This document shows positions 40,517 through 41,173 of a DNA stretch of 64,000 nt, in pieces. Each line of letters begins with the position of its first letter. The first letter of the stretch is position 1. This DNA is from Eledone cirrhosa (taxonomy: Eukaryota): positions 179,614,001 to 179,678,000 of the forward strand of contig OZ024743.1 of assembly GCA_964016885.1 (NCBI GenBank), read 5' to 3'. The notes below the pieces were generated by a model, which saw only the letters and a list, made by a program, of their open reading frames with translations, made no database searches and was not told the DNA's origin. The translations under genes and the position numbers were made by a program.

Positions 40517-41173
40517 ATATATATATTATAATTGAATATAAAAGAAAGATAAACACAAATATATACATATATGTGTTCAAACCGTAAGGGACCAGATTCG
40601 CTAAGGGGAAAAAAATACTAACTATGGACAATAGGGTTTGCCAGACTCAATTTAAGAATAAATCAAAAAAATAAATACAAACCGGAATTGTGGTAACTAC
40701 CAATCACCCAGACAGCATTTGGTTATGCTGTTTCGCAAATTAATTGTGAAGAGGAATACCGATTCTTGCTCATCAGTGGGTGAAGAGAATTAGCATGCTC
40801 GTCACTTCTAAGTATATCAGAAAACTGAATATTGTGCGTATATATAATAACACTCATGGTATCGGAACTTAGCGTGTCTCACAAAATCACACCACCAAAA
40901 ATAGCAACAAAGTTTACTCGACATTTAAATTAGCTCAACAAATTAACGGAGTCGAATATATCAAAGGTATATATTGAGTTAGAAACTCAAAATAGTCTCT
41001 TACAATAAAATAGCTCTAGGAAAGAGATTTTTCCGAACCGTATATTATAATTGAATATAAAAGAAAGATAAACACAAATATATCTGTTCAAATCGGAAAA
41101 ATCTCTTTCCTAGAGCTATTTTATTATAAGAGACTATTTTGAGTTTCTTCTAACTCAATATATACCTTTGATA
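40517..41173 (-). mobile_element. ORF-less HHR module with a terminal direct repeat (519-nt period) and a 5' inversion, in (TA)n
   Basis: 40522-40584 is repeated at 41041-41095. 40959-41036 is inverted at 41092-41173. Confidence 0.8.
40704..40783 (-). ncRNA. Full canonical type I hammerhead ribozyme
   Basis: UCACCCA-CUGAUGA-GCAA..UUGC-GAAA-CAGCAU(AACCAA)AUGCUG-UC^-UGGGUGA. 7-bp helix I, all conserved core nucleotides, GUC site between 40711 and 40710. Confidence 0.92.

What the first reader, a model, noticed from the sequence alone, without database searches (positions are those of the whole stretch)
40517..41173. Full hammerhead inside a 519-nt directly repeated, ORF-less unit: retrozyme/circRNA candidate
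Seen: the best HHR in the window (40704-40783, minus strand; 7-bp helix I, stable helix III, GUC site). The unit's 3'-terminal ~55-60 nt (40522-40584) recurs 519 nt away (41041-41095), followed by an inverted 80-nt piece and (TA)n. No ORF. Inference: a slightly-more-than-monomer copy is what reverse transcription around a ~520-nt circular RNA would leave. A partial-tandem pLTR is the alternative. Unlike the minimal HHRs, this one should cleave as a monomer.
Basis: partly seen in the sequence, partly recalled or inferred. Interest (0 to 1): 0.75.

Follow-up and report, generated by a model that had tools for sequence, protein, structure and literature searches.

The report
Penelope-riding hammerhead retrozyme, single copy
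This is one copy of a protein-free 519-base jumping repeat found at hundreds of places in this animal genome; it carries a predicted self-cutting RNA motif and was likely pasted into a TA repeat by a Penelope-type enzyme, probably from an RNA circle, which is a known kind of element with an unusually clear record of how it moves.

Summary
In detail: a full type I hammerhead at 40783-40704 (minus strand, cut after 40711) sits in an ORF-less 519-nt unit with a short direct repeat and an inverted 80-nt piece. It is one copy of a dispersed family (557-947 exact motif hits; 174 insertions examined). Copies end at two fixed points 85 nt apart, usually in (TA)n. Back-to-back arms use one end each (68 of 69 pairs), the known tail signature of Penelope-like elements (PLEs). 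No copy is joined to an ORF. A sister family (73% identical along the whole unit) keeps the hammerhead through compensatory changes. So this is a non-LTR retrozyme (non-autonomous PLE passenger). A circular template is favoured, not shown: repeats within one arm share rare variants (14 of 136, 3 expected) and 40 of 53 arms read through the cut site. Two arms, however, join different haplotypes. This copy has one hammerhead, so it cannot release a unit-length circle. Monomer cleavage is untested, and a competing fold is predicted. Earlier scan notes report similar families elsewhere in this genome. Known kind, new member.

The parts
40522..41040 (-). One full 519-nt unit (u1 = 41040, u519 = 40522), non-coding, 33% GC
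   Evidence: repeat spacing; family mapping; GC; no ORF
40522..41095 (-). Long arm, about 1.1 units, 3' end at the family's u519 end point
41041..41095 (-).
41093..41176 (+). Inverted short arm, u5 to u85, ending at the family's 'tail' end point
41093..41095 (.). 3-nt microhomology where the two arms meet head to head
   Evidence: read from the sequence
40704..40783 (-). Type I hammerhead ribozyme motif; predicted cut between 40711 and 40710 (after u330)
40956..41040 (-). 85-nt 'tail' segment between the two fixed end points (inferred RT start sites)
   Evidence: 128 arms end at u82-89 and 117 at u512-1, of 307
40516..40521 (.). Short TA run at the long arm's 3' end (inferred target)
41171..41267 (.). 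(TA)n/(TG)n microsatellite at the short arm's 3' end (inferred target)

Best explanation
This is one copy of a dispersed, ORF-less 519-nt repeat family with a conserved hammerhead motif, likely a non-LTR retrozyme copied into (TA)n tracts by a Penelope-like RT/GIY-YIG enzyme working in trans, probably from a circular unit-length RNA. Steps: (1) inferred: a locus with two or more units is transcribed and the hammerheads cut out a ~520-nt monomer, which is ligated into a circle. (2) Inferred from the ends: the helper enzyme nicks both strands of a TA tract and primes inside the RNA at two fixed sites 85 nt apart, one per strand. (3) Shown in the DNA: the two cDNAs vary in length, read through the cut site, can exceed one unit and meet head to head, often by microhomology. 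(4) Shown in 2 arms: the two passes carry different haplotypes, so a second monomer is sometimes used. This copy has one hammerhead and is likely a dead end.
For: Dispersed family: 557, 733 and 947 exact hits to three 22-27-mers, 0 for reversed controls. Of 307 arms in 174 insertions, 245 end at one of two points, and 193 of those 245 run into TA-like DNA. Head-to-head arms occur in 108 of 174 insertions. Among 69 pairs with two intact ends, 68 have one of each type, 1 has two u519 ends and none has two tail ends. This is the PLE tail rule (PMC8557442 and PMC3846280, passages), explained by two internal RT start sites (PMC11167929, parts 1-2 read). No ORF is joined to the unit. Sister family B (520 nt) is 367 of 499 identical across the whole unit and has the same anatomy in 29 loci, with 3 compensatory changes in helix I and 1 in helix III. 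For one monomer read twice: rare letters shared by both passes of an arm 14 of 136 against 3.05 expected in 50 arms, and 55 of 281 against 6.5 after adding 16 loci picked for length. They lie scattered between differing sites in 5 of 8 long arms inspected. Both hammerheads had the same loop-III haplotype in 6 of 6 arms where both could be read, of 15 arms with two sites. 40 of 53 arms reaching the cut site cross it.
Against: No RNA, cleavage or circle was observed. The helper is not identified. Two long arms (L205, L188) differ between passes at several common polymorphic sites together, which a single circle cannot give. Divergence between passes (5.65%) is not lower than to the nearest quarter of other insertions (5.47%; p = 0.11). 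One arm (L187) owes 13 of the 55 shared letters to a block that looks like a later local duplication. 5' stops are about three times denser on the 3' side of the cut site (0.5-0.66 per 100 nt at u331-490) than just past it (0.18-0.27), as a share of cut linear templates might give. In vitro, a PLE RT used uncut linear RNA, and its start site did not differ between strands (PMC11167929). The hammerhead's best predicted fold hides the core. The expected counts come from my own neighbour-based null, and a few loci are duplicates of one insertion (L006/L059, L035/L036).
Confidence: 0.6

Rival explanations
1. The same non-autonomous PLE passenger, but copied from linear, incompletely cut multimer transcripts, with template switches regenerating tandem units; any circle is a by-product.
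For: Heterodimer arms L205 and L188; inverted partners with different haplotypes in L016, L047 and L129; more 5' stops 3' of the cut site; predicted competing fold; uncut RNA is the main PLE template in vitro.
Against: Both passes of an arm share rare letters about as often as the two arms of one insertion do (14 of 136 against 41 of 308; Fisher p = 0.44). Long source arrays are scarce: the longest arm was 2.45 units in a search aimed at long ones. The join at the cut site is letter-exact in 557 places.
Confidence: 0.28
2. The unit is just the pseudo-LTR of an autonomous PLE, and these copies are its truncated 3' ends and partial tandems.
For: PLE anatomy. Many PLE ORF fragments lie near copies. 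Only the best 40 of about 3,000 candidates are scored per DNA search, so a rare parent could be missed.
Against: No examined insertion continues from the tail, or from upstream of the hammerhead, into a shared ORF-bearing sequence. Neighbouring PLE ORFs looked at have unrelated ends. The unit closes on itself, and families A and B are collinear over the whole unit at 73%.
Confidence: 0.07
3. Over-unit copies and their shared variants arose after insertion, by local duplication or gene conversion.
For: L187 shows block-wise sharing; L091 holds a short local tandem expansion.
Against: The repeats are in register with the same unit length at unrelated loci. Shared and differing sites interleave in L190, L193, L200, L201 and L215. 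Overall divergence between passes is not reduced.
Confidence: 0.05

Closest known systems
Metazoan non-LTR retrozymes (Cervera and de la Pena 2020, PMC7229834, passages read; Li, Clavereau and Pollet 2026, bioRxiv 10.64898/2026.07.22.740005, parts 1-3 of 5 read)
   Same: ORF-less low-GC unit with one type I hammerhead, dispersed and in short tandems, no LTR; co-occurs with PLEs, which both papers propose as helpers.
   Different: The unit is 519 nt, above the ~170-400 nt circles tested in 2020 but inside the 51-972 bp range of 2026. Most copies hold under 1.5 units. Helix III is 5 bp and loop II is long. Two fixed ends, inverted arms and TA targeting are not described for retrozymes in the passages I saw (no 'inverted' or 'microsatellite' in the 2020 main text). 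No RNA is shown here.
Penelope-like element insertions with pseudo-LTR and tail (Craig et al. 2021, PMC8557442; Arkhipova et al. 2013, PMC3846280; passages)
   Same: 5' truncation, partial tandems, an inverted copy at the 5' end, a tail on one end only, microsatellite targets.
   Different: No RT/GIY-YIG ORF. The tail is 85 nt rather than 30-40. The hammerhead is full, not the minimal form usual in animal PLEs (PMC4209133, passages).
PAc (Poseidon of the green anole) in vitro mechanism (Frangieh et al. 2024, PMC11167929, parts 1-2 of 4 read)
   Same: Two internal RT start sites define the tail; both target strands are cut and extended; AT-rich targets.
   Different: There the start site did not depend on the strand and was not homologous to the target. 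Here the two arms almost always use different sites, and both sites end in TA-rich letters that match the target.
Non-autonomous Chlamys PLEs such as MRC1 (PMC8557442, passage)
   Same: ORF-less PLE passengers with head-to-tail multicopy insertions.
   Different: Those lack canonical hammerheads and resemble their helpers at the 3' end; no such helper was found here.

Membership tests
Non-LTR retrozyme | Type I hammerhead in each unit | tested here: met
   no Rfam model matched
Non-LTR retrozyme | Short non-coding unit of low GC | tested here: met
   519 nt, GC 0.33, longest frame 51 aa
Non-LTR retrozyme | Tandem copies with two or more hammerheads | tested here: met
   Met for the family: 17 of 341 arms cross two or three cut sites, 11 of them from loci picked for length. 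Not met for this copy, which has one hammerhead.
Non-LTR retrozyme | Self-cleavage of the RNA | not testable with these tools
   only covariation and folding predictions
Non-LTR retrozyme | Expressed as unit-length linear and circular RNA | not testable with these tools
   indirect DNA evidence only
PLE-mobilised insertion | Fixed 3' ends with a tail on one end only | tested here: met
   68 of 69 pairs with two intact ends; 15 of 21 head-to-head loci in family B, the rest with a clipped end
PLE-mobilised insertion | Variable 5' truncation, partial tandems, head-to-head inversion | tested here: met
   108 of 174 insertions inverted, 1 tail-to-tail
PLE-mobilised insertion | AT-rich or microsatellite target | tested here: met
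   193 of 245 intact ends run into TA-like DNA
PLE-mobilised insertion | Sequence shared with the ends of an autonomous helper | tested here: inconclusive
   none found among the PLE families looked at; not all families in the genome were sampled
Autonomous PLE | RT plus GIY-YIG ORF between pseudo-LTRs | tested here: not met
   no ORF joined to the unit in the insertions examined
Plant LTR retrozyme | Type III hammerhead in LTRs | tested here: not met
   type I topology, no LTR pair; PBS, PPT and 4-bp duplications not searched

The most novel reading that the evidence does not exclude
The family records in DNA that a Penelope-type enzyme, priming twice on one ribozyme-made RNA circle at two sites 85 nt apart, copies it past one full turn in both target strands. 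That would be genomic evidence that an animal circRNA is the actual transposition template, with a conserved alternative fold keeping the hammerhead quiet in the circle.
Probability: 0.4. Interest if true: 0.68.

Novelty: new member of a known kind. Interest (0 to 1): 0.42.

Why it matters
How animal retrozymes move is still hypothetical in the papers read: circles and PLE helpers are proposed, not demonstrated. This family shows PLE-type insertion scars on an ORF-less ribozyme unit and gives a sequence-only test for a circular template (rare variants shared by successive passes). It also gives exact predictions for RT start sites (u85, u519) and the RNA junction (u330/331) that can be tried with the existing in vitro PLE system. 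The single locus has no evident function.

Tried and rejected
No RNA holder was listed; this says nothing about expression. Contigs of three runs from at most one sample, none on record as RNA, were laid on the locus. Summed depth falls about 18-fold from 40670-40696 to 40724-40750. I did not use this as evidence that copies stop at the cut: the tool says depth is no copy number, the 85% cut-off penalises the more variable middle, and exact counts (733 just 3' of the cut against 557 across it) and 40 of 53 crossings disagree. An apparent pile-up of 5' ends at u351-367 in the first, similarity-ranked sample did not stand out from u371-490 in the tail-selected sample. Rfam gave only chance, repeat-driven hits. 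Candidate parents were rejected: the ORF families in L098/L131, L136 and the window, and the 713-aa family have unrelated ends. A direct genome-wide count of tandem pairs was not obtained; long arrays were sought with a 1.6-unit natural copy, best 40 of 3,003 candidates scored. The bacterial promoter scan is irrelevant to an animal. The whole-unit fold is only modestly better than shuffles (z = -1.9; 60% paired as a circle), so 'highly self-paired' is not supported. Six literature searches listed no paper describing this family or a cephalopod retrozyme by title or abstract start; an Octopus vulgaris repeat paper has no mention of 'ribozyme' in its main text (PMC13282606). Supplements were not read, and Repbase/Dfam could not be searched.

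Full report
1. Observation. On the minus strand, 40783-40704 forms a complete type I hammerhead: 7-bp helix I, CUGAUGA, a 4-5-bp helix II with a long loop, GAAA, helix III and GUC with the cut after 40711. A strict descriptor finds it once in the window and never in 200 dinucleotide shuffles. Rfam's hammerhead models miss it. The direct repeat (40522-40585 and 41041-41096, spacing 519), the inverted 80-nt piece (41093-41176) and the following (TA)n are as described. I number the unit u1 (41040) to u519 (40522); the cut falls after u330. Read as a circle it has no frame over 51 aa.

2. It is a dispersed family. The window lies in a 3.0-Gb animal genome. That it is octopus-like rests on earlier scan notes and my recall of its repeats, not on a test. 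A DNA search gave 3,158 candidates, and the 40 scored were 91-94% identical apart from the window itself. Three exact motifs occur 557, 733 and 947 times, with 0 for reversed controls. I mapped 185 loci; 10 exact duplicates and one mixed-family locus (L088) were dropped, leaving 174 insertions with 307 arms. The samples were chosen by similarity, by hammerhead motif or by tail motif, mostly from contig C1, so they are not random. Arms differ from the family majority by a median 5.9%, this copy by 29 of 461 sites.

3. Anatomy. 128 arms end at u82-89, 117 at u512-1 and 62 elsewhere; 193 of the 245 intact ends run into TA-like DNA. 5' ends vary. 108 of 174 insertions have two arms head to head, and only 1 is tail to tail. 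Of 109 such pairs, 69 have both ends intact: 68 combine a u85 end with a u519 end, 1 has two u519 ends and none has two u85 ends. The arms usually meet with a few bases of overlap or gap, and the u85 arm runs past the u519 site in 62 of 68. The window copy fits: a 1.1-unit arm ending at u519 and an inverted u5-u85 arm, joined by a 3-nt microhomology. This is PLE anatomy: partial tandems, an inverted 5' copy, a tail on one end and microsatellite targets (PMC8557442 and PMC3846280, passages). In vitro the tail lies between two internal RT start sites and both target strands are extended (PMC11167929, parts 1-2).

4. No ORF-bearing parent found. PLE ORF fragments lie near some copies, but they belong to several families, are mostly separated by TA runs or lie beyond the fixed 3' end, and those whose ends I read are unrelated. 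A large 713-aa PLE family found next to one copy shares no sequence with the unit in 29 further loci. A sister family B (520 nt, 1,905 candidates) is 367 of 499 identical to this unit, evenly along its length, and shows the same two ends and inversions in 29 loci. The ORF-less unit has therefore likely spread as a unit for a long time. A rare or diverged helper is not excluded.

5. The hammerhead is under constraint. In 72 distinct family A motifs each helix position pairs in 60-72 cases. Helix III position 4 is G-C in 56 and A-U in 8. Family B (9 motifs) replaces three helix I pairs and one helix III pair with other standard pairs. The parser favours intact motifs. A 5-bp helix III is longer than the 1-2 bp usual in animal hammerheads that need to dimerise (PMC4209133, passages), so monomer cleavage is plausible. 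But the best predicted fold pairs the core with loop II. The active fold lies 5.1-5.3 kcal/mol higher in this copy, with medians of 3.2, 6.3 and 4.4 in subfamilies A, A2 and B (n = 44, 15, 8). These figures ignore tertiary contacts and have no positive control.

6. Circle or linear multimer. For a monomer read twice: 82 of 307 arms exceed one unit; 40 of 53 arrivals at the cut site pass it in the tail-selected sample; 17 of 341 arms pass it two or three times once 16 long loci are added. The two passes share rare letters 14 of 136 times against 3.05 expected in 50 arms, and 55 of 281 against 6.5 in 66 arms, of which 19 have at least one. Loop III was the same in both hammerheads of 6 of 6 readable arms, with five or six different haplotypes among them. 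In L190, L193, L200, L201 and L215 shared and differing sites interleave. The window's two passes share one rare letter. Against: L205 and L188 join two different haplotypes, L187 looks like a later duplication, passes are not closer overall than near relatives, and stops are denser 3' of the cut. Inverted partners also share rare letters (41 of 308, 8.6 expected), so both arms usually come from one RNA or one source, with exceptions. I put the circle at about two to one over linear multimers.

7. Mechanism. Shown: dispersal, two fixed ends, one per arm, TA flanks, over-unit copying, no ORF, conserved hammerhead. Inferred: transcription of two-unit loci, cleavage, ligation, binding by a PLE RT-endonuclease (a dimer was predicted for PAc), priming at u85 and u519 on opposite target strands, and joining of the two cDNAs. 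This locus has a single hammerhead and cannot release a monomer.

8. Known relatives and novelty. Non-LTR retrozymes are described in coral, mussel and axolotl, with PLEs proposed as helpers (PMC7229834, passages), and a 2026 preprint links them to pLTRs in vertebrates (parts 1-3). The family meets the sequence criteria; cleavage and circular RNA were not testable. My six searches listed no paper on this family. Earlier scan notes describe similar hammerhead families with fixed ends elsewhere in this genome, while look-ups by sequence and by nearby place returned nothing; those notes are not independent support. Verdict: new member of a known kind, interest 0.42, with added value from the DNA-level test for a circular template.

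Noticed in passing
L086:5254-7313; also L075, L063: A second ORF-less family with a 466-nt unit and a minimal hammerhead. L086 holds 4.4 almost identical units (99.4-99.8%) ending in (TA)n, joined at the 5' end to the 3' region of a PLE ORF of the family at window 2083-3606. This may be a template-switch chimera pointing to its helper.
   Followed up: partly
L217-L245 (family B): Sister family, 520-nt unit, ~74-78-nt tail, arms up to 2.57 units, with compensatory hammerhead changes.
   Followed up: yes
window 62524-62791 and 35205-35275: Minimal hammerheads of other families; the pair at 62.5-62.8 kb is an inverted duplicate.
   Followed up: no
window 2083-3606 (-), 30368-31549 (-), 6425-6772 (-): PLE-type ORF fragments; the second has weak RVT_1 and GIY-YIG matches below Pfam's cut-offs, the other two none.
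   Followed up: partly
window 43200-46600 (-): Broken frames that look like a LINE (endonuclease and RT-like motifs by eye, recalled; no Pfam hit for the two frames tested).
   Followed up: no
L255-L283: A very abundant, young PLE family with open frames up to about 713 aa at 95-96% identity; a possible helper by age, but with no shared sequence.
   Followed up: partly
window 40776-40756 (-): The catalytic core can pair with the start of loop II in this copy; the same letters are kept in other family A copies, a possible off-switch.
   Followed up: partly
L006/L059 and L035/L036: The same insertion with the same flanks at two places, so some copies spread inside larger duplications.
   Followed up: no
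loci flanks: Many unrelated minimal-hammerhead families, often as inverted pairs, lie within 1.5-3 kb of these insertions, consistent with shared TA-rich targets.
   Followed up: no
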